DNA from: a phage | Strand: one strand, 5' to 3' | Length of the DNA stretch: 50,825 nt | Sequence record: PZ452600.1 | In this document: one piece after another, positions 15,827 to 44,117 of the stretch | Layout of the letters: every line of letters begins with the position of its first letter | Numbering within the stretch: the stretch's first letter is position 1 | Notes under the pieces: model-generated | Databases searched by the model: none | Told to the model about the DNA's origin: nothing | The model's input: the letters and a program-made list of their open reading frames with translations, nothing else | Position numbers and translations under genes: made by a program

Positions 15827-15850
15827 ACCCGCCTTGCGCGGGTTTTTTTG
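15827..15850 (+). terminator. intrinsic terminator before J-like gene
   Basis: CCCGC-CTTGC-GCGGG + T7. Confidence 0.65.
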
Positions 15851-15898: not shown

Positions 15899-18800
15899 AT
15901 GGCTAAATATATGATAAGCGGCAGTAAGGGCGGAAGCAAAAAGCCATACGTGCCAAAAGAGATGGAAGATAACCTGATCTCGATAAACAAGATTAAAGTT
16001 TTGCTGGCTGTATCTGATGGAGAGTGCGATCCAGATTTCACGTTGCGTGATCTTTATCTTGATGATGTTCCGGTTATTGCCAGCGATGGCACTGTTAACT
16101 ATGAGGGGGTAACGGCTGAATATAGACCAGGCACACAGACGCAAGATTACATCCAGGGGTTTACTGACACATCAAGCGAGGTGACAGTTTCGCGAGACAT
16201 TACAACAGACAATCCCTATATTATCTCTGTGACAAACAAAAATCTTTCTGCAATAAGAATCAAGATTCTGATGCCAGTTGGCATAAAACAGGAGGATAAC
16301 GGCGATCTTGTTGGCGTAAGGGTTGAGTATGCCGTAGATATGGCTATTGATGGCGGTTCTTATAGCGAGGTTATGAGAGATGTAATTGACGGCAAGACAA
16401 GATCAGGATACGACCGCAGCAGAAGGATTGATCTTCCTAAGTTTGATGAGCGCGTTTTAATCCGAGTAAAGCGACTGACTCCAGACAGCACATCTTCAAA
16501 GGTGACTGATAAAATCAAGCTGCAAAGTTACGCTGAGGTTGTTGATGCAAAATTCCGTTATCCTCTGACTGGCCTTGTATTCGTAGAATTTGACAGCGAA
16601 TTGTTTCCTACGCAAATCCCTAACATTTCTATAAAAAAGAAATGGAAGATTATTAATGTGCCAAGCAACTATGATCCAATATCAAGAGAATATCACGGGT
16701 CATGGGATGGGACTTTTAAAAAAGCGTGGTCAAATAATCCCGCTTGGGTTCTTTATGATCTGGTGACAAATCAGCGTTATGGACTTGATCAGCGAGAGTT
16801 AGGAATACAGATCGACAAGTGGAGCTTATACGAGGCGGGCGTTTACTGTGATCAGAAAGTTCCAGACGGTAAGGGAGGTACAGAGCCTCGCTACCTATGC
16901 GATGTGGTGATTCAGAATCAAGTTGAGGCTTATCAGCTAATCCGTGACATTTGCTCAATCTTTCGCGGAATGAGTTTTTGGAATGGTGAGAGCTTATCAA
17001 TCGTGATTGATAAGCCACGCGATCCATCATACGTGTTTACTAATGAAAACGTCATCAACGGTGATTTTCAGTACACAACCGCAAGCGAAAAAAGCATGTA
17101 CACGCAGTGTAACGTGACGTTTGACGACGAACAAAACATGTATCAGCAGGACGTAGAGGGGGTTTTTGATACTGAGGCGGCATTACGATTTGGATACAAT
17201 CCAACAAGCATTACAGCGATCGGGTGCACACGCAGGAGCGAAGCGAATCGTCGCGGTCGGTGGGTTTTGAAAACAAACCTTAGAAGCACTACTGTAAACT
17301 TTGCTACCGGACTAGAGGGGATGATTCCATCAATAGGTGATGTTATTGCTATCGCTGATAATTTTCAGAGTAGCAACCTAACGTTAAACCTATCGGGCCG
17401 AGTAATGGAAGTTTCAGGATTGCAGGTTTTCGTTCCGTTTAAGGTTGATGCTCGCCCTGGTGATTTTATTATCATCAACAAGCCGGACGGCAAGCCAGTT
17501 AAGCGCACGATCTCAAAGGTTAGCGCAGACGGAAAAACCATTGAGTTAAATATTGGATTTGGTTTTGATGTTAAGCCTGATACTGTTTTTGCGATTGACC
17601 GTGCTGACCTTGCGTTGCAGCAATACGTTGTGACAACTATCAGCAAGGGTGATGACGAAAACGAGTTTACCTATTCAATCACGGCTGTGGAGTACGATCC
17701 GAACAAATACGACGAGATTGATTATGGCGTAAACATTGATGACAGGCCGACGTCAATTGTTCAGCCTGACGTGATGGCAGCGCCTGAGAACGTTAAGATC
17801 TCATCTTATTCTCGCGTCGTGCAGGGTGTTAGCGTTGAGACTATGGTTGTTTCATGGGATAAGGTTCCTTACGCATCGCTTTATGAAATGCAGTGGCGAA
17901 AAGGTGATGGTAACTGGCTGAATACGCCGCAGACCGCTAACAAAGAGATAGAGGTAGAAGGGATTTATTCAGGCAACTACCAAGTAAGGGTGAGATCCGT
18001 TTCTGCAAGCGGTAACACTTCCCCGTGGTCAAAGATTGCAACCGCAACCCTGACAGGTAAAGTTGGCGAGCCAGGAGCGCCGATTAATCTTACAGCTTCT
18101 GATAATGAAGTTTTTGGCATTCGTGTCAAATGGGGTATGCCGGAAGGATCAGGCGATACGGCTTACATTGAGCTTCACCAATCGCCAGACGGAACGGTTG
18201 AAAACTCAAGTCTGCTTACGCTGATTCCATATCCTCAATATGAGTATTGGCATAGCACGTTACCAGCGGGGCAAGTTGTATGGTATAGAATCCGCAGCGT
18301 TGACAGAATAGGCAACGTTTCCAGCTGGACTGACTTTGTTCGCGGTATGGCGTCAGATGATGTTGAATCTGTTTTGGGCGACATTCTGGACAAGATTTTT
18401 GATACAGAAGCTGGTCAAGAAATCAAAGAGAACGCCATAGACAGCGCCAATAAAATCAAAGACCAGGCACAATCAATCATACAGAACGCGTTGGCAAATG
18501 ATGCAGATGTGAAGTGGACGCGAGTGCAAAACGGAAAGCGTAAGGCTGAATATGGTTATGCTCTTGAGCTTATCGCCAATGAAACAGAAGCGCGCGTAAC
18601 TCAAATCGAAGAGTTAAGGGCATCAATTGATGGCGAGATAACATCAAGCATCAAGACAGTGCAGGAGGCAATTGCCACTGAATCAGAGACGCGAGCGACT
18701 CAAATTCAGCAGCTTGATTCTAAATTCACAAAAGAAATCGACGGCGTGCGCAAGGATACTTCTGCAAGCATTAGCGATGTAAGGCAGACAATCACTAACG

Positions 18801-19477
18801 AGTCAGAAGCGCGCGCTCAGGCCGTTCAGCAGCTTGACGCTAAGTTCACGAAAGAGATAAACGACCTTGACGGAGTTATCAAAACAGAAGTCGAGGCTAA
18901 CATCTCAGAAGTGAAACAGGCGATCGCCAATGAGACAGAGGCAAGGGTTCAGGCTGACCAGGCATTAACAGCACGATTTGGCGACGTTGAATCTGCATTG
19001 GTTGAAAAGTTGGATTCTTGGGCGAGCGTTGATTCAGTTGGCGCTAAATACGCTATGAAACTTGGCCTTACTTACAAAGGCCAGCAGTACAGCGCCGGAA
19101 TGGTTATGCAGTTAACGCAATCACCGCAAGGATTAATATCACAGATTCTGTTTGACGCTAACAGATTCGCGATCATGACAAGTTCTAGCGGCGGGGTATA
19201 TACGCTTCCTTTCGTGGTTGAGAATAACCAGGTTTTCATCAATAGCTTACTTGTGAAAGATGGTTCAATAACTAATGCTATGATTGGAAACTTTATTCAG
19301 TCAAACAATTTTGTTCAAAATCAGCAAGGTTGGAGGCTTGATAAAAACGGAATATTTGAAAACTACGGATCAACTCCAGGAGAGGGAGCTACTAAATTCA
19401 CCAACGAAGGATTGAAGGTAAAAGATGCAAACGGAGTATTGAGGGTTGAAGTCGGAAGGATTACCGGAAGCTGGTAA
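15899..19477 (+). CDS. central tail fibre / host specificity protein (lambda gpJ-like)
   Basis: 1192 aa from ATG 15899, downstream of terminator 15827-15850; the track ORF start at 15848 lies in the terminator. Confidence 0.85.
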   Translation: MAKYMISGSKGGSKKPYVPKEMEDNLISINKIKVLLAVSDGECDPDFTLRDLYLDDVPVIASDGTVNYEGVTAEYRPGTQTQDYIQGFTDTSSEVTVSRDITTDNPYIISVTNKNLSAIRIKILMPVGIKQEDNGDLVGVRVEYAVDMAIDGGSYSEVMRDVIDGKTRSGYDRSRRIDLPKFDERVLIRVKRLTPDSTSSKVTDKIKLQSYAEVVDAKFRYPLTGLVFVEFDSELFPTQIPNISIKKKWKIINVPSNYDPISREYHGSWDGTFKKAWSNNPAWVLYDLVTNQRYGLDQRELGIQIDKWSLYEAGVYCDQKVPDGKGGTEPRYLCDVVIQNQVEAYQLIRDICSIFRGMSFWNGESLSIVIDKPRDPSYVFTNENVINGDFQYTTASEKSMYTQCNVTFDDEQNMYQQDVEGVFDTEAALRFGYNPTSITAIGCTRRSEANRRGRWVLKTNLRSTTVNFATGLEGMIPSIGDVIAIADNFQSSNLTLNLSGRVMEVSGLQVFVPFKVDARPGDFIIINKPDGKPVKRTISKVSADGKTIELNIGFGFDVKPDTVFAIDRADLALQQYVVTTISKGDDENEFTYSITAVEYDPNKYDEIDYGVNIDDRPTSIVQPDVMAAPENVKISSYSRVVQGVSVETMVVSWDKVPYASLYEMQWRKGDGNWLNTPQTANKEIEVEGIYSGNYQVRVRSVSASGNTSPWSKIATATLTGKVGEPGAPINLTASDNEVFGIRVKWGMPEGSGDTAYIELHQSPDGTVENSSLLTLIPYPQYEYWHSTLPAGQVVWYRIRSVDRIGNVSSWTDFVRGMASDDVESVLGDILDKIFDTEAGQEIKENAIDSANKIKDQAQSIIQNALANDADVKWTRVQNGKRKAEYGYALELIANETEARVTQIEELRASIDGEITSSIKTVQEAIATESETRATQIQQLDSKFTKEIDGVRKDTSASISDVRQTITNESEARAQAVQQLDAKFTKEINDLDGVIKTEVEANISEVKQAIANETEARVQADQALTARFGDVESALVEKLDSWASVDSVGAKYAMKLGLTYKGQQYSAGMVMQLTQSPQGLISQILFDANRFAIMTSSSGGVYTLPFVVENNQVFINSLLVKDGSITNAMIGNFIQSNNFVQNQQGWRLDKNGIFENYGSTPGEGATKFTNEGLKVKDANGVLRVEVGRITGSW

Positions 19478-19506
19478 AAAAAGGGGGCATAGCCCCCTTT
19501 AATTTT
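19476..19506. terminator. bidirectional terminator between convergent J-like and receptor-binding genes
   Basis: A-run, GGGGGC-ATA-GCCCCC, T-run. Confidence 0.7.
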
Positions 19507-20119
19507 AATCATAGTGTGATGCATTTATAACCAAAACAGATGAGGCGGTGTAAATACCAACAGGTCCAGGGGTTTGTGCAACCTGCCTGGAAAAAGAGTA
19601 GATCCCGTTACCATACGCGGCAGCTTGAGACTCAAAAATCATAAATCCACCTAAAGCCGGATTAGGTACAGAGTTTAACGCTGTTAGTGATGGCATTATT
19701 GCGCAAGGGTAGCCCAGGTTAACATCAAACGCGATCCCGCTCACACCAACTTGCTTTGCATCAAGCGGCCTCATTTTTCCATGATAAACCATTTCACCAT
19801 GAGCGTTATAAAACGCTATGCCGTGACTACCTGGAGGAGTCACCATGTTACTAAAAGCATAAACAATAACCTCCCCTTGATTATCAGATCTATCAATTCT
19901 TATTGCGTGCCTTCCACCATTGTTAAATTGCGTAAATGATATGTATGATTTAGCAGTCAATCTAACAAAGAAAAAACATACCCTATCAACAGGAATTGAC
20001 GAAGTAAAAACGGTTCCGGTATTAGCAGATATTACGGCCCGATCAATTAGATTAACTGGAGTGAAATCTGGACTTAACCATAACGATCCGTCTGATTTTT
20101 TTATACTCATCCCGTACAT
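19505..20119 (-). CDS. putative receptor-binding protein
   Basis: 204 aa from ATG 20119; last gene of leftward operon that begins with the Cor/Llp-like lipoprotein; convergent with the J-like gene. Confidence 0.5.
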   Translation of the reverse strand: MYGMSIKKSDGSLWLSPDFTPVNLIDRAVISANTGTVFTSSIPVDRVCFFFVRLTAKSYISFTQFNNGGRHAIRIDRSDNQGEVIVYAFSNMVTPPGSHGIAFYNAHGEMVYHGKMRPLDAKQVGVSGIAFDVNLGYPCAIMPSLTALNSVPNPALGGFMIFESQAAAYGNGIYSFSRQVAQTPGPVGIYTASSVLVINASHYD

Positions 20120-20121
20120 TA

Positions 20122-20400
20122 TCACCCCCAAAAAGTATATATATATCTTGAATCAGATCCAGAAAGCCCACTCCATGTAACGGTGTCGCCACTTACCCCC
20201 AAGTTTGGTGCTCCAGGGTCGCCACCACGCCAGGAATTCATGCCAACATATATTGCTTTCAATGATTTACCTGGTGGCCTGTTTTGGTAAGTCTTGCTAC
20301 CTGATGGCTGAGTGAATTTATCAAGGAAGAAAACAGGCGTTAAAAGTCCTGTAACTTCCCTTCCTCGATCGTCATATATTGCATAACCATATTGCGCCAT
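20122..20400 (-). CDS. hypothetical protein in receptor-binding module
   Basis: TAATG overlap with lipoprotein stop; 92 aa. Confidence 0.45.
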   Translation of the reverse strand: MAQYGYAIYDDRGREVTGLLTPVFFLDKFTQPSGSKTYQNRPPGKSLKAIYVGMNSWRGGDPGAPNLGVSGDTVTWSGLSGSDSRYIYTFWG

Positions 20401-20675
20401 TAATTACACCTCAAATCAATAAATTTACTTTCATTTTGCCAACGGTTGATAAATTTAACTTCTTTATTGTCAACGCTCAACCTGTATTGCTTTTGGCTGA
20501 ATCTGTTTTCGCGTACTGCATTAATTTTAACTTCATGGAATCCGTTAACAGGGAATGTTTTAACGTTAAATTTTGCCGTGCAGTCGATCTCATTGAAGTT
20601 GCCAGTAGGAGACGCTGCGCACCCGGTCAGAGCGACTACGGTGGCGATAACTGCGATTAATTTTTTCATCTTCAA
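20400..20675 (-). CDS. lipoprotein, candidate superinfection-exclusion factor (Cor/Llp-like)
   Basis: Signal peptide with lipobox LTGC (MKMKKLIAVIATVVALTGCAAS); AAGGAG RBS; first gene after a box cassette; adjacent to receptor-binding candidates. Confidence 0.7.
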   Translation of the reverse strand: MKMKKLIAVIATVVALTGCAASPTGNFNEIDCTAKFNVKTFPVNGFHEVKINAVRENRFSQKQYRLSVDNKEVKFINRWQNESKFIDLRCN

Positions 20676-20700
20676 TACTCCTTAGTTGTCGTTGCCTGTA

Positions 20701-20743
20701 ACTATACACGATCCGACAAGCGGCGTTTAGCAAAAAGTGCTAC
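20701..20743 (-). promoter_or_regulatory. box cassette upstream of Cor/Llp-like lipoprotein gene
   Basis: minus-strand GTAGCACTTTTTGCTAAAC (20743-20725), N18, TATAGT (20706-20701); RBS and ATG 20675 follow. Confidence 0.5.
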
Positions 20744-21112
20744 TTGTTATTTTTTGTTTTTCGGTGTTATCGAATTTAAGACGGCGTAAATTTAGCGCAA
20801 ATTTTAGCCAACATAAGTGCAATAAACAATCAATAAAATATATATATACATATAAAATCAATAGTTTATTTATTTATGTATGTATATTTGTTTTTTCTTG
20901 TTATCTGTGTTTCTTGTGGTTTTGGTTGTTTGTGGTGATTTTTCTTTCTGAGTATCTGTATGTGCCATCATTCATGTGTATGTATATAATCCGGCGTATC
21001 TGAGAGAACAAGGGAACAAGAAAAATAACACATATTAATCATTGACTTACGTTTCAAATTTGTTTTATTGCAATCTAAGAACGTTTAGAAAACAGAAAAA
21101 ACAAAACAACTA

Positions 21113-21140
21113 TTGACTAAATAAACCAAATGGCTACAAT
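21113..21140 (+). promoter_or_regulatory. sigma70-like promoter for recombination operon
   Basis: TTGACT-N16-TACAAT, about 30 nt upstream of ATG 21171. Confidence 0.6.
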
Positions 21141-21170
21141 GCACACACAAAGCAACAAGGAGCATCAAAG

Positions 21171-22226
21171 ATGAGTGATTTTAACGCCTACACTAGCGAA
21201 GAAATGAGCAATGAGCTTTATCATGATCCTAACGCGTGGACGGCTGAATACGTCAGCGGTTCCAGCTTGGCGGAGATTTACAGCACTTGCCCGGCGTACT
21301 GGAAGTACAAGCCTCGCCAGGAAACTAAGGCACTTGTTTTCGGTACGCAGTCGCATACCAATTTTGAAAGCAAGGAGTTATTCGAAAAAACATATCGCCG
21401 CGCACCGTCGCAGGATGACTTTAAAGATCTGATCACAAGCCAAACGGCGTTAGCTGCAAAGCTGAAATCTTTTGGCCTGAAAGGTACGACGGGTAAGCAA
21501 TACCCTGAATTGCTGGAAATGCTGTACAAGTGCGGTGAGGATCTCAATGTATGGTGGCTTATCGAAATGATGGCAGAATGCCAGGCCGCAGCGGACGGAG
21601 TGCAGTTAATCGACGCGAAAGATTATGATGCCTGTGTAGCGATGCGGCGCGTACTTGAGGCAATACCTGAGCATAATGCTTGCATGAATAGCCCAACCGC
21701 GCAGCGTGAAATGTCAATATTCGGGATCATCAATGGCGTAAAAGTTAAGGTGCGTCTTGATCACGTTGACGTAAACAAGGATGTAAAGGCAACAATCATT
21801 AACGGTTACGACGAAAAAGGCCGACCGATTTATGAAGAAGTCATCTATCCAGAAGCTGTGATTATCACTGACTATAAAACAACGGTTAGCGCAAATCCGG
21901 TTGACTTCCAGCGCCTTGCTTACAATCACGGCTATTATCTCAAAATGGCTTTGCAGCATGATTTATTTAAAAAGGCGTATCCAGACGAGGAAAGACCAGT
22001 AATTGTGAGATTACTTGCTCAAGAGAAGAAAGAGCCTTACTTGCCGCTCGCATTCCGCATGAACATTGAGCAATTGAAGATTGGGCGCATCCAGTACATG
22101 AGCGTGATCAACAAGTTCAACGTTTGCCAACAGTTAGATGAATGGCCTTCGTATGCAAACGGGCAACCAGAAATTGATCTTGATACTCCTGATTGGGTCC
22201 GCGCTCAATTCAGGCAGTATCTATGA
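21171..22226 (+). CDS. putative recombination exonuclease (PD-(D/E)XK-like)
   Basis: 351 aa, first gene after promoter 21113-21140; motifs RLDHVD and ITDYKT fit a D...(D/E)xK nuclease core; followed by ERF and SSB. Confidence 0.55.
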   Translation: MSDFNAYTSEEMSNELYHDPNAWTAEYVSGSSLAEIYSTCPAYWKYKPRQETKALVFGTQSHTNFESKELFEKTYRRAPSQDDFKDLITSQTALAAKLKSFGLKGTTGKQYPELLEMLYKCGEDLNVWWLIEMMAECQAAADGVQLIDAKDYDACVAMRRVLEAIPEHNACMNSPTAQREMSIFGIINGVKVKVRLDHVDVNKDVKATIINGYDEKGRPIYEEVIYPEAVIITDYKTTVSANPVDFQRLAYNHGYYLKMALQHDLFKKAYPDEERPVIVRLLAQEKKEPYLPLAFRMNIEQLKIGRIQYMSVINKFNVCQQLDEWPSYANGQPEIDLDTPDWVRAQFRQYL

Positions 22227-42487: not shown

Positions 42488-42756
42488 AAAAGGCATTAAT
42501 CAGCGTTTTGGCGGCAATGGCATTCCTGACCGGATGCAAAGAAGATGGCGCGCATGTTGGCAATGTGCAGATGGCTAACCCTGGCGATGACTACAGCGTA
42601 AGGGAGCTATTCACCGCTGACGGTTGCACCGTTTACCGATTCTATGACGATCGCACTGTTTACTTCACCAACTGCAAGGGAACGACTAGCTGGGAAGTGT
42701 CGAAAAGCAACGGCAAAGGCACAACAACAGAATATATGACCGTCGAGACAAAATAG
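42484..42756 (+). CDS. early lipoprotein
   Basis: ATGA overlap; signal peptide with lipobox LTGC (MKKALISVLAAMAFLTGCKED). Confidence 0.6.
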   Translation: MKKALISVLAAMAFLTGCKEDGAHVGNVQMANPGDDYSVRELFTADGCTVYRFYDDRTVYFTNCKGTTSWEVSKSNGKGTTTEYMTVETK

Positions 42757-42812
42757 CACTTTTTGTTAAAACGCCAGGTGCAAAGCCTGGCATAATAGCC
42801 TCATCGAAACGA
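42753..42812 (+). promoter_or_regulatory. box cassette
   Basis: box 42753-42772 contains upstream stop TAG; hairpin GCCAGG/CCTGGC; CATAAT 42791-42796; CATCGAAACGA 42802-42812. Confidence 0.5.
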
Positions 42813-42828
42813 GATTGAGGAAACAAAA

Positions 42829-43014
42829 ATGGCACGTCGCATCACCAAAGACCTTAAAGTCCTGAACAAAGAAAACGTAGTTAAAATCCTGGTTATATGG
42901 GGCTACAACGAAGAAGCAGCAAAGCAGAAGGTAGAGGCAGGTTATGACCTGGCTGTAAAAGCAATGCCAAACGACGACGCCAAAGGCATTGCAAACTATG
43001 TAGCGTTCTTTTAA
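42829..43014 (+). CDS. hypothetical protein
   Basis: GAGG 8 nt before ATG; downstream of cassette 42753-42812. Confidence 0.5.
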   Translation: MARRITKDLKVLNKENVVKILVIWGYNEEAAKQKVEAGYDLAVKAMPNDDAKGIANYVAFF

Positions 43015-43029
43015 TTAGCAGGTGAATAA

Positions 43030-43215
43030 ATGAAAACGAAATTAGTCCATAAATCAGAAATCAAGATCGGCGATACTGTGATTCACAACGGCGAGCTTAG
43101 AACGGTTGGCAAAGAGTCAATAAGCCGCGATGAATTTATGGGGATCTTGTTGTTCGGTGACTCTTATCGTCTTGGTTACAAGATGGTTGAGCTTGTGGAA
43201 GAGGTCAAATTCTAA
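43030..43215 (+). CDS. hypothetical protein
   Basis: AGGTGA RBS; 61 aa. Confidence 0.5.
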   Translation: MKTKLVHKSEIKIGDTVIHNGELRTVGKESISRDEFMGILLFGDSYRLGYKMVELVEEVKF

Positions 43216-43259
43216 ATAGCACTTTTTGTTAAAACTCGAAAACGATAACCAGGCATAAT
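43216..43259 (+). promoter_or_regulatory. box cassette
   Basis: box 43216-43235; N18; CATAAT 43254-43259; stem-loop GGGCGGCACGGCGTCGCCC in leader. Confidence 0.5.
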
Positions 43260-43313
43260 AAATCACATAGGGCGGCACGGCGTCGCCCACAAAACCAATC
43301 AGGAGAAAGCACC

Positions 43314-44117
43314 ATGTTAAAACTTGCTGACATTAAATTCCCGATCACCTTCGAATCTCGCGGCATTGGTCATTACATTTTTACTGATGAAAAAACATGC
43401 CATAAAGTTGATTTGCATAGCTACAAGCGTGCGCCATCAGACATGGAGATTGAACACTTCATTGATGCACATAACAAGCACTACAACGCACTTAAAGACT
43501 ATGGCTATGCAATGCCAGGATATACCAGCTTCCACTACAAGCCATATAAAGGCCAGGTGTTGCCAGTGCGCTCGCCGGAACGCGCAGAGATTCCGATGGT
43601 CAATATGAAAACATGCGACTACAAAAAGCTGTGGTGCTTAAGTGTGGACAATATCAAGTATCCGATCACGTTCCGCACGACTGGTAAGTCAACGATTCGC
43701 TACACATCGCGCGAAAATGGCGTTTATAGCGATGGTACGAAATCAGAGTTGAAAGTTGATTTCTTTGTCAACGGTCACAACAAATTCAATCCGCACAACG
43801 AAGAGGATAAAGTGTACTACGTGGAAGACATTACAAAACACTTGTTTGGAGAAACTCCATTCGGCGGCGGTAAGACGTCAATTCAAAAAATCGTAACGCA
43901 GGGCGCGATTGAAGATATGCCAGTTGCAGCCACGCTAAAAGGAGTCCGGCTTGATGACGGCACCTGGTATGAATTAACGGCTACACCAAAGACGATCGAA
44001 ATTCATGATGATGTTGTTATCCTTCTGCTTCACTACGGCGGCTATAAAAACCGGACGATTACAGGTGAGATCAGCATCAAGCGCGGAACGATGGTTAAGT
44101 GGAAGGTCAAAGTGTAA
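43314..44117 (+). CDS. hypothetical protein with internal duplication
   Basis: 267 aa; repeated segment ADIKFPITFESRGIGHYIFTDE / DNIKYPITFRTTGKSTIRYTSRE; downstream of cassette 43216-43259. Confidence 0.55.
   Translation: MLKLADIKFPITFESRGIGHYIFTDEKTCHKVDLHSYKRAPSDMEIEHFIDAHNKHYNALKDYGYAMPGYTSFHYKPYKGQVLPVRSPERAEIPMVNMKTCDYKKLWCLSVDNIKYPITFRTTGKSTIRYTSRENGVYSDGTKSELKVDFFVNGHNKFNPHNEEDKVYYVEDITKHLFGETPFGGGKTSIQKIVTQGAIEDMPVAATLKGVRLDDGTWYELTATPKTIEIHDDVVILLLHYGGYKNRTITGEISIKRGTMVKWKVKV

What the first reader, a model, noticed from the sequence alone, without database searches (positions are those of the whole stretch)
19505..20675. Leftward module pairing receptor-binding candidates with a Cor/Llp-like lipoprotein
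Directly downstream of and convergent with the J-like gene is a three-gene operon driven by its own box cassette: a 91-aa lipoprotein (lipobox LTGC) followed by 92-aa and 204-aa proteins. The arrangement matches loci in T1- and T5-like phages where a small lipoprotein blocks the receptor used by the adjacent receptor-binding protein. That makes it a likely determinant of host range and superinfection exclusion.
Basis: partly seen in the sequence, partly recalled or inferred. Interest (0 to 1): 0.5.

Follow-up and report, generated by a model that had tools for sequence, protein, structure and literature searches.

The report
Phage BtuB receptor-binding and exclusion cassette
This is the already described three-gene cassette next to the tail-tip gene of T1-like coliphages: two tail-tip proteins predicted to recognise the vitamin B12 transporter BtuB, and a small lipoprotein predicted to block that receptor in infected cells. 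It is real but ordinary.

Summary
Three tightly packed minus-strand genes sit convergent with the J-like gene: a lipoprotein (89 aa from ATG 20669, or 91 aa from TTG), a 92-aa protein and a 204-aa protein. They lie between a phage-specific promoter box and a strong terminator.

The window is a Warwickvirus (Drexlerviridae), 99.5% identical here to phages tiwna and NorthRox. The three proteins differ by 1, 1 and 3 residues from those of BASEL phage FritzSarasin (Bas04). Bas04's terminal receptor was determined experimentally as BtuB, and its locus was published as a 'bona fide RBP locus'.

New evidence here:
- Profile comparison shows all three genes are divergent homologues of the T1 cassette ST31, ST32 and Cor.
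- The 92+204 pair is inseparable in 80 of 80 related loci. The lipoprotein accompanies it in only 9.
- Neither the 92-aa nor the 204-aa protein has a signal peptide or membrane segment.

The lipoprotein's link to Cor/Llp is real but weak outside the signal peptide. Nobody has tested this BtuB allele biochemically. Verdict: interpretation supported, already known, low interest.

The parts
20726..20742 (-). Conserved promoter box TAGCACTTTTTGCTAAA, the 'box cassette'. It is one of 16 copies in the window.
   Evidence: 16 matches against 0.01 expected; shared layout of box, about 19-22 nt, a -10-like hexamer, leader, RBS and ATG; same position in FritzSarasin, Kalemo and NorthRox, but absent from the T1, Oekolampad and JenP2 loci.
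20701..20706 (-). -10-like hexamer TATAGT, downstream of the box.
   Evidence: Read directly. It aligns with CATAAT/TATATT/TATAAT in the other box copies. The generic sigma-70 scan did not call it because no canonical -35 lies at 16-18 nt.
20400..20669 (-). Cor-family outer-membrane lipoprotein: 89-aa precursor, 73-aa mature form. Candidate BtuB-directed superinfection exclusion factor.
20122..20400 (-). 92-aa soluble partner protein. It is a homologue of T1 ST32, N15 gp22 and phi24B gp55, the 'Ig-like' protein of Matusiak 2025. Likely tail-tip adaptor or co-factor.
   Evidence: phrog_557, E 4e-20. hhalign against the T1 ST32 family: 95%, E 3e-8. Immediately upstream of the 204-aa homologue in 80 of 80 loci. 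No hydrophobic segment. Exhaustive phmmer found 19 hits, 17 of them stand-alone proteins of 60-95 aa.
19505..20119 (-). 204-aa all-beta 'hand-like' protein. Candidate BtuB receptor-binding protein at the tip of J.
19473..19500 (.). Bidirectional intrinsic terminator between the J-like gene and the cassette.
   Evidence: plus strand; minus strand: 9-bp stem, U7 tail, -15.7 kcal/mol, z -2.9.
15899..19477 (+). J-like central tail fibre gene (context). It lacks a lambda-type C-terminal receptor-binding domain. It ends in a beta-hairpin motif shared with T1 and JenP2 J and with the Stx-phage needle.
   Evidence: alignment to lambda J stops at lambda residue 931 of 1132. C-terminal ...LKVKDANGVLRVEVGRITGSW is shared with T1 and JenP2 J, with a similar motif in Sakai orf62; Oekolampad J differs. 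The start is taken at MAKYM as in Bas04; the mechanical ORF starts at 15848.

Best explanation
The 1.17-kb leftward operon is the BtuB allele of the detachable tail-tip receptor-recognition plus superinfection-exclusion cassette of T1-like phages.

Shown here:
- Transcription signals: a genus-specific promoter box (20742-20701) precedes three translationally coupled genes, which end at a strong terminator.
- Gene 1 has a lipoprotein signal peptide. Its mature domain is about 73 aa and has two invariant cysteines.
- Genes 2 and 3 encode soluble proteins with no export signal.
- The 204-aa protein has the fold of the solved LptD-binding RBP of phage Oekolampad.
- All three proteins are divergent homologues of T1 ST32, ST31 and Cor.

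Inferred:
- One 204-aa 'hand-like' protein caps the C-terminal end of the trimeric J fibre, which has no receptor-binding domain of its own. It binds the extracellular face of BtuB and triggers irreversible adsorption.
- The 92-aa protein is an obligatory partner, either an adaptor between J and the RBP or a co-factor.
- The lipoprotein is sorted to the inner leaflet of the outer membrane. It binds the periplasmic face of BtuB and, like Llp on FhuA, changes the outer loops so that further phage cannot bind. This would protect the infected cell and stop progeny being lost on debris.
For: - Identity to a phage with a known receptor: 99.5% DNA identity to tiwna and NorthRox and 98% to FritzSarasin. 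The proteins differ by 1, 1 and 3 residues from Bas04. The Bas04 terminal receptor is BtuB (Maffei 2021 S5 Table). Another Warwickvirus, Arnold, also requires btuB.
- Homology to the T1 cassette: the same PHROGs 425, 557 and 1119. hhalign gives 100%, 95% and 98%.
- Same gene order as a proven system: Oekolampad has lipoprotein then RBP, convergent with J, and the lipoprotein of Rtp (Rtp45) is a proven exclusion factor.
- Pairing: the 92+204 pair is adjacent in 80 of 80 loci. A lipoprotein is present in only 9 of them.
- Not membrane proteins: there are no hydrophobic segments in the 92-aa or 204-aa proteins.
- J cannot explain specificity: it lacks the lambda receptor-binding domain. Its last 200 aa are 60% identical to T1 J although the receptors differ.
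- Virion presence of a homologue: phi24B gp54, from the Stx-phage group that is 44% identical, was detected in the virion proteome, with extra density on the needle tip.
- Published AF2-multimer models put the hand-like protein on the spike tip and on the receptor.
- The lipoprotein has the Cor/Llp Cys pattern. The Llp literature predicts the same mechanism for other TonB-dependent transporters.
Against: - No experiment exists for this allele. Binding to BtuB, presence in virions and exclusion are all inferred.
- The lipoprotein is below NCBIfam's Cor cutoff (19.6 against 31 bits). Without the signal peptide the profile match drops to 27% probability, E 7e-4.
- In Stx phage Sp5, deletion primers are listed for the homologous ORF72 and ORF73 (92 and 205 aa). 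Neither is among the nine genes essential for plaque formation or lysogeny on K-12. In that podovirus the pair is therefore not indispensable.
- The candidate virion proteins share a promoter type with many non-structural operons. In T1 the pair lies on the J strand instead.
- I could not model any complex with J or BtuB.
Confidence: 0.8

Rival explanations
1. The 92-aa and 204-aa proteins are non-essential tail-tip accessories. They would improve adsorption or host range, while BtuB recognition itself lies in J or in the lateral fibre.
For: Sp5 ORF72 and ORF73 homologues have listed deletion primers and are not among the essential genes. phi24B gp54 is at low abundance and gp55 was not detected. 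Lewis 2023 treated J as the RBP.
Against: J lacks a lambda-type receptor-binding domain. Its C-terminus is nearly the same in BtuB and FhuA phages. Receptor specificity tracks the allele of this locus without exception in BASEL and in 81 screened siphoviruses. The fold equals a solved RBP.
Confidence: 0.1
2. All three genes form a membrane-located exclusion module. The 92-aa and 204-aa proteins would be 'outer membrane' and 'membrane-associated' helpers of Cor, as the PHROG names say and as the KanT1 paper assumed.
For: PHROG labels. Co-transcription with the lipoprotein from one promoter. The KanT1 authors' assumption.
Against: Neither protein has a signal peptide or hydrophobic segment. The pair occurs without any lipoprotein in 71 of 80 loci. 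In T1 a terminator and opposite orientation separate it from cor. The fold is that of an RBP. A homologue is found in virions.
Confidence: 0.04
3. The lipoprotein is not an exclusion factor for BtuB. It is a lipoprotein with another role, such as envelope remodelling, or it blocks a different protein.
For: Weak similarity to Cor and Llp in the mature domain. No experimental data.
Against: Cor-type lipobox, size and Cys pair. It sits in a cassette whose other two genes are homologous to Cor's neighbours in T1. It co-varies with the RBP allele: 98/93/55-60/31% identity for the lipoprotein against 99/86/57/38% for the RBP. The phage has a separate spanin.
Confidence: 0.08

Closest known systems
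BtuB-type 'bona fide RBP locus' of BASEL phage FritzSarasin (Bas04) and other Warwickvirus phages (Maffei et al. 2021, PMC8594841)
   Same: Same three genes, order and position. The proteins are 203/204, 91/92 and 86/89 residues identical. The receptor was determined as BtuB.
   Different: Essentially nothing; this is the same allele. In GenBank the three genes are mostly 'hypothetical', or carry misleading PHROG names.
T1 / N15 / phi80 / HK022 cassette: ST32 (gp22), ST31 (gp23) and Cor (FhuA-specific)
   Same: All three proteins are homologous: the same PHROGs and hhalign 95-100%. The cassette is directly downstream of J. Cor is an experimentally established exclusion lipoprotein.
   Different: Pairwise identity is only about 24-31%. 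The receptor is FhuA, not BtuB. In T1 the pair is co-oriented with J and cor is on the opposite strand behind a terminator. Here all three form one leftward operon with the lipoprotein first.
Oekolampad (Bas18) RBP and Rtp Rtp44/Rtp45 (LptD-specific; cryo-EM, PDB 9rpt)
   Different: There is no significant sequence similarity. The RBP is a single 321-aa chain with no separate ~92-aa partner. The receptor is not a TonB-dependent transporter. The lipoprotein belongs to a different PHROG (4281).
T5 pb5 / Llp (FhuA) and BF23-type BtuB binders
   Same: Functional logic: a monomeric RBP on the tip of a trimeric central fibre, plus an adjacent small disulphide-bonded lipoprotein that blocks a TonB-dependent transporter from the periplasm.
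Stx podophage phi24B gp55/gp54, equivalent to Sp5 ORF72/ORF73 (BamA-dependent phages)
   Same: 44% and 50% identical full-length homologues, as an adjacent pair directly downstream of the needle gene. gp54 was detected in virions. The needle C-terminus carries a motif like that of J.
   Different: The virion is a podovirus. No lipoprotein is present; lom follows instead. The pair is not among the genes essential for Sp5 infectivity on K-12.

Membership tests
Cor/Llp superinfection-exclusion lipoproteins | Lipoprotein signal peptide with lipobox and +1 Cys, and a non-Asp residue at +2 (outer-membrane sorting) | tested here: met
   MKKLIAVIATVVALTG|CAAS. Signal-peptide hydropathy 1.88. Pfam LPAM_1 gives a weak hit.
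Cor/Llp superinfection-exclusion lipoproteins | Small mature domain (about 55-75 aa) with a conserved Cys pair, one near the N-terminus and one at the C-terminus (intramolecular disulphide) | tested here: met
   The mature form is 73 aa. Cys30 and Cys88 are invariant in 11 homologues. They align Cys-to-Cys with T1 Cor. Formation of the disulphide itself cannot be tested here.
Cor/Llp superinfection-exclusion lipoproteins | Sequence membership in the Cor family | tested here: inconclusive
   phrog_1119, E 1.4e-8, full length. hhalign 98%, E 2.5e-13 with the signal peptide, but 27%, E 7e-4 without it. NCBIfam NF047972 gives 19.6 bits, below the cutoff of 31.
Cor/Llp superinfection-exclusion lipoproteins | Llp-like fold | tested here: inconclusive
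Cor/Llp superinfection-exclusion lipoproteins | Expression blocks the cognate receptor and excludes phages that use it | not testable with these tools
   This needs a plating assay on cells that express 20400-20669.
Hand-like tail-tip RBPs of small siphophages (phrog_425; T1 ST31 / N15 gp23) | Sequence homology over the full length | tested here: met
   phrog_425, E 4e-49, residues 1-204. hhalign against the T1 ST31 family: 100%, E 1e-48, residues 2-204 against 3-229.
Hand-like tail-tip RBPs of small siphophages | Fold shared with an experimentally solved RBP from the same locus | tested here: met
Hand-like tail-tip RBPs of small siphophages | Encoded directly next to a J-like gene that lacks its own receptor-binding domain; soluble, with no export signal | tested here: met
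Hand-like tail-tip RBPs of small siphophages | Virion component that binds the terminal receptor (here BtuB) | not testable with these tools
   Indirect only: Bas04, with a 203/204-identical protein, needs BtuB, and homologue gp54 is in phi24B virions.
Small partner protein (phrog_557; T1 ST32 / N15 gp22 / phi24B gp55) | Sequence homology, and an obligatory position immediately upstream of the hand-like gene | tested here: met
   phrog_557, E 4e-20. hhalign 95%, E 3e-8. Adjacent in 80 of 80 loci.
Small partner protein (phrog_557) | Ig-like fold resembling the lambda J C-terminal domain (Matusiak 2025) | not tested
The sequence profile against the lambda J C-terminus is not significant.
T5 pb5-type RBP | Sequence or fold similarity to pb5 | tested here: not met

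The most novel reading that the evidence does not exclude
The receptor-recognition proteins that a 2026 preprint calls 'four unrelated families' would be, at least for three receptors, one ancient superfamily of detachable tail-tip RBPs. The BtuB allele (here), the FhuA allele (T1) and the BamA-phage allele (phi24B/Sp5) are sequence homologues. The LptD allele (Oekolampad) shares the fold. In this reading they all plug onto a conserved C-terminal beta-hairpin motif (...VxDxxGxLRVxIGR...) of J-like fibres in siphoviruses and of needles in podoviruses. The ~92-aa protein would be the adaptor that the single-chain LptD type has dispensed with or absorbed. If true, receptor specificity could be swapped as a cassette across phage morphotypes.
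Probability: 0.45. Interest if true: 0.4.

Novelty: already known. Interest (0 to 1): 0.2.

Why it matters
The cassette decides which outer-membrane protein the phage uses, here almost certainly BtuB. It probably also decides whether an infected cell can be attacked again. That matters for predicting host range from sequence, for choosing phages whose resistance mutations carry a cost, and for engineering receptor swaps.

This work adds little that is new for this allele. What it does add:
- It links the BtuB, FhuA and BamA-phage alleles by sequence, and the LptD allele by fold.
- It flags the Sp5 deletion data as an unresolved conflict with the idea of an essential RBP.

Tried and rejected
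- Pfam found nothing for the 92-aa and 204-aa proteins, and only sub-threshold hits for the lipoprotein.
- Sequence searches of the PDB with the three proteins, with the lipoprotein profile and with T1 Cor gave only chance hits.
- Split-gene idea (92 + 204 aa = the 321-aa Oekolampad RBP): BLAST segments are collinear but not significant, hhalign is not significant, and an exhaustive phmmer search with the 92-aa protein found no fused form. This is left open, not supported.
- Internal duplication of the 204-aa protein, or the 92-aa protein as a copy of one half: only a 14-residue YG-x-A-x-Y-D/N-x-x-G motif matches, at 40% probability.
- Relation of the 92-aa protein to the lambda J C-terminal domain is not significant.
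- The generic sigma-70 scan missed the operon's promoter, and its counts equal chance. The promoter was identified through the repeated box instead.
- Rfam found no match in 19300-21300.

Full report
**What is there**

Between 19505 and 20675 the minus strand carries three tightly packed ORFs.
- Lipoprotein: 20400..20675 from TTG (91 aa), or 89 aa from the ATG at 20669.
- 92-aa ORF: 20122..20400.
- 204-aa ORF: 19505..20119.

The ATG is the better start for the lipoprotein. AAGGAG (20683-20678) lies 8 nt upstream of it but only 2 nt from the TTG, and all annotated relatives use the ATG.

The lipoprotein stop overlaps the next ATG (TAATG). The 204-aa gene starts 2 nt after the 92-aa stop, so the three genes are translationally coupled.

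The J-like gene ends at 19477 on the plus strand. The 27-nt gap holds a 9-bp GC-rich hairpin that works as a terminator in both directions. On the minus strand a U7 run follows it; the energy is -15.7 kcal/mol and no shuffle out of 200 folds as well.

**The 'box cassette'**

The 17-mer TAGCACTTTTTGYTAAA occurs 16 times in the window (up to 1 mismatch) against 0.01 expected by chance.

Printing the copies in register shows a common layout: box, about 19-22 nt that often form a hairpin, a -10-like hexamer (CATAAT, TATATT, TATAAT), a leader containing CATCGA(A/C)AAC, an RBS and an ATG.

The copy at 20726-20742 on the minus strand fits this layout, with TATAGT at 20706-20701. It is conserved at the same place in FritzSarasin, Kalemo and NorthRox. 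It is absent from the T1, Oekolampad and JenP2 loci.

The generic sigma-70 scan did not call this promoter, and its hit count equals chance. The box is therefore a genus-specific promoter type shared with many non-structural operons. Expression timing cannot be told from sequence.

**What phage this is**

The region 19300-21000 is 99.5% identical to Escherichia phages tiwna and NorthRox, and 98% identical to FritzSarasin (Bas04). These are Drexlerviridae, Tempevirinae, genus Warwickvirus.

The three proteins differ from the Bas04 proteins at 1 of 204, 1 of 92 and 3 of 89 positions.

The BASEL paper lists the Bas04 terminal receptor as BtuB (S5 Table). It describes allelic 'bona fide RBP loci' directly downstream of gpJ, together with cognate exclusion proteins, that match receptor specificity without exception (PMC8594841).

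A 2026 preprint confirmed the correlation on 81 siphoviruses. A TraDIS study found btuB essential for another Warwickvirus, Arnold.

**The 204-aa protein**

Pfam and PDB sequence searches find nothing. PHROGs places the protein in phrog_425, named 'membrane associated protein' (E 4e-49).

It has no signal peptide or hydrophobic segment. The maximum 19-residue hydropathy is 1.28.

An AlphaFold2 model from 26 homologues is confident: pLDDT 89.2, pTM 0.83. It is all-beta. Only the first 20 residues are uncertain, although these are among the best conserved. That pattern fits a segment that becomes ordered only on a partner.

Oekolampad encodes that RBP at the same locus and in the same order: exclusion lipoprotein first, then RBP, convergent with J. 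The cryo-EM paper shows the RBP on the outer face of LptD, and shows the lipoprotein of the related phage Rtp (Rtp45) on the periplasmic face.

Foldseek against viral models finds 22 further phage proteins with this fold. All are uncharacterised or unnamed apart from one bulb-type lectin domain protein.

**Relation to T1**

T1 has J(+), ST32 (101 aa, +), ST31 (229 aa, +), a terminator, then cor (-).

Pairwise BLAST to the window proteins is weak. However, the T1 proteins fall in the same PHROGs 557, 425 and 1119.

Profile-profile comparison of families I assembled from fetched loci gives the following.

| Window family | T1 family | hhalign probability | E-value | Extent |
|---|---|---|---|---|
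| 204-aa | ST31 | 100% | 1e-48 | full length |
| 92-aa | ST32 | 95% | 3e-8 | residues 1-75 |
| lipoprotein | Cor | 98% | 2.5e-13 | full length |

The whole cassette is therefore a divergent allele of the T1 / N15 / phi80 cassette. It is inverted relative to J and fused into one operon. The preprint's 'four unrelated protein families' holds only at its threshold of 30% identity.

**The lipoprotein**

Several features fit Cor and Llp:
- the lipobox LTG|C, with Ala at +2;
- a mature length of 73 aa;
- two invariant cysteines, Cys30 and Cys88.

Llp and Cor share about 20% identity, 'including the intramolecular disulphide bond' (PMC9586334).

The direct tests are weaker than the headline numbers suggest:
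- With the signal peptide removed, the profile match to Cor falls to 27% probability, E 7e-4. It still runs collinearly from Cys to Cys.
- NCBIfam's Cor model scores 19.6 bits against a cutoff of 31.

I file it as a remote Cor-family relative. That rests on the combined sequence features and on its place in a cassette whose other genes are homologous to Cor's neighbours. No experiment on a BtuB-directed Cor-like protein of T1-like phages turned up in the literature searches.

**The 92-aa protein and the pair**

In 80 of 80 viral contigs that encode a 204-aa homologue, a 92-aa homologue lies immediately upstream on the same strand.

A lipoprotein precedes the pair in only 9 loci: L007-L010 and L082-L086. 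It is absent within 3 kb in the other 71, which fall into two groups of 204-aa homologues, one about 44-45% identical (as in Stx phages) and one about 40% identical (as in Nonagvirus JenP2).

The pair is thus the constant unit and the lipoprotein is an add-on.

Across comparisons the 204-aa protein diverges faster than the 92-aa protein: 57 against 67%, 44 against 50%, and 38 against 43% identity. This fits a receptor-contacting protein paired with a more constrained adaptor.

An exhaustive phmmer search with the 92-aa protein found 19 hits. Seventeen are stand-alone proteins of 60-95 aa; the other two match only short stretches of long repetitive proteins. No fused form was found.

Matusiak et al. 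2025 modelled the same two families as an 'Ig-like' trimer and a 'hand-like' monomer. AF2-Multimer favoured the hand-like protein both on the spike tip and on FhuA or BamA.

**J and the docking site**

The window's J aligns to lambda J only up to lambda residue 931 of 1132. It therefore lacks lambda's C-terminal receptor-binding domain.

Its last 200 residues are 60% identical to T1 J although the receptors differ. Its tail ...LKVKDANGVLRVEVGRITGSW is shared with T1 and JenP2 J.

The needle protein of Stx phage Sakai (orf62), which also precedes a 92+204-type pair, ends ...IEVYDQNGRLAVRIGRLR. Oekolampad J, which serves a single-chain RBP, ends differently.

A similar hairpin motif opens the 92-aa protein and recurs inside the 204-aa protein; a looser version opens the 204-aa protein. 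I read this as a hint of a conserved docking interface, not as proof.

**Conflicting evidence**

The phi24B cryo-EM preprint detected gp54 (204 aa) in the virion proteome at low abundance. It saw extra density on the needle tip, but did not detect gp55.

In Sp5, Mondal et al. built in-frame deletions of nearly all genes of unknown function. The supplement lists deletion primers for ORF72 (92 aa) and ORF73 (205 aa). Neither is among the nine genes essential for plaque formation or lysogeny on K-12.

So the pair is not indispensable in that podovirus. I could not see the quantitative figure. This keeps alive the rival that the pair is an accessory rather than the sole RBP.

**Conclusion**

The feature is already known.

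The most likely mechanism is as follows. A hand-like RBP, with its small partner, docks on the tip of J and binds BtuB from outside. A Cor-type lipoprotein made from the same transcript blocks BtuB from the periplasm.

The gene anatomy, the homologies, the fold and the pairing are shown. Virion location, BtuB binding, the role of the 92-aa protein and exclusion are inferred.

Noticed in passing
window-wide, e.g. 30512, 31583, 42754, 43217, 48174 (+); 34826, 37662, 39580, 40086, 41391 (-); also 6195 and 9948 (-): A 17-20-nt box (A)TAGCACTTTTTGTTAAA(AC) occurs 16 times and heads most non-structural operons. It is followed by a variable hairpin, a -10-like hexamer and a conserved leader (CATCGAAACGA). 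The spacing from TTGTTA to the -10 is about 22 nt, too long for a standard sigma-70 promoter. Two copies (6195 and 9948) lie antisense inside the late structural module with no -10 or ORF downstream.
   Followed up: partly
window 20750-21100: The divergent intergenic spacer has 26-27% GC. It contains T/G-rich tracts, TATATA runs and 33-nt imperfect inverted repeats (20825-20857 / 20870-20902). Relatives annotate three tiny ORFs here (29-44 aa). Rfam finds nothing. Its function is unknown.
   Followed up: partly
L003 (VT2-Sakai 42739-43643) and about 100 Stx-phage records: Short-tailed Stx phages carry full-length homologues of the 92-aa (50%) and 204-aa (44%) proteins, directly after the needle gene and before lom. 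There is no lipoprotein. Literature gives gp54 in phi24B virions, yet the Sp5 deletion study lists primers for ORF72 and ORF73 and neither is among its essential genes.
   Followed up: partly
window 19330-19477 (J C-terminus); L003, L004, L005: The C-terminal hairpin motif (I/L)xVxDxxGxLRVxIGR(I/L) is shared by J of this phage, T1 and JenP2, and by the Stx-phage needle. It is not shared by Oekolampad J. A related motif opens the 92-aa protein and recurs inside the 204-aa protein (looser at its start).
   Followed up: partly
window 18572-18947 (inside the J-like gene): Four diverged direct repeats lie 99-132 nt apart and encode ...ANETEAR...QLD.KFTKEI... units. From the MAKYM start the window's J is 1192 aa, against 1141 aa annotated in Bas04. 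This suggests a difference in repeat number.
   Followed up: no
phage records MG065681, MG065643 and MG065657 ('Campylobacter phage' A139, E6, C4; 49,946 bp): Records labelled as Campylobacter jejuni phages carry 52-72% identical homologues of all three cassette proteins. Their genome size is T1-like. The labels may reflect coliphage contamination or mislabelling.
   Followed up: no
L082-L086 (IMG/VR contigs of 44-47 kb): A distant allele has the same three-gene order. The RBP is 38% identical, the partner 43% and the lipoprotein 31%. Its receptor is unknown, so it could be used to test the co-variation of RBP and lipoprotein.
   Followed up: no
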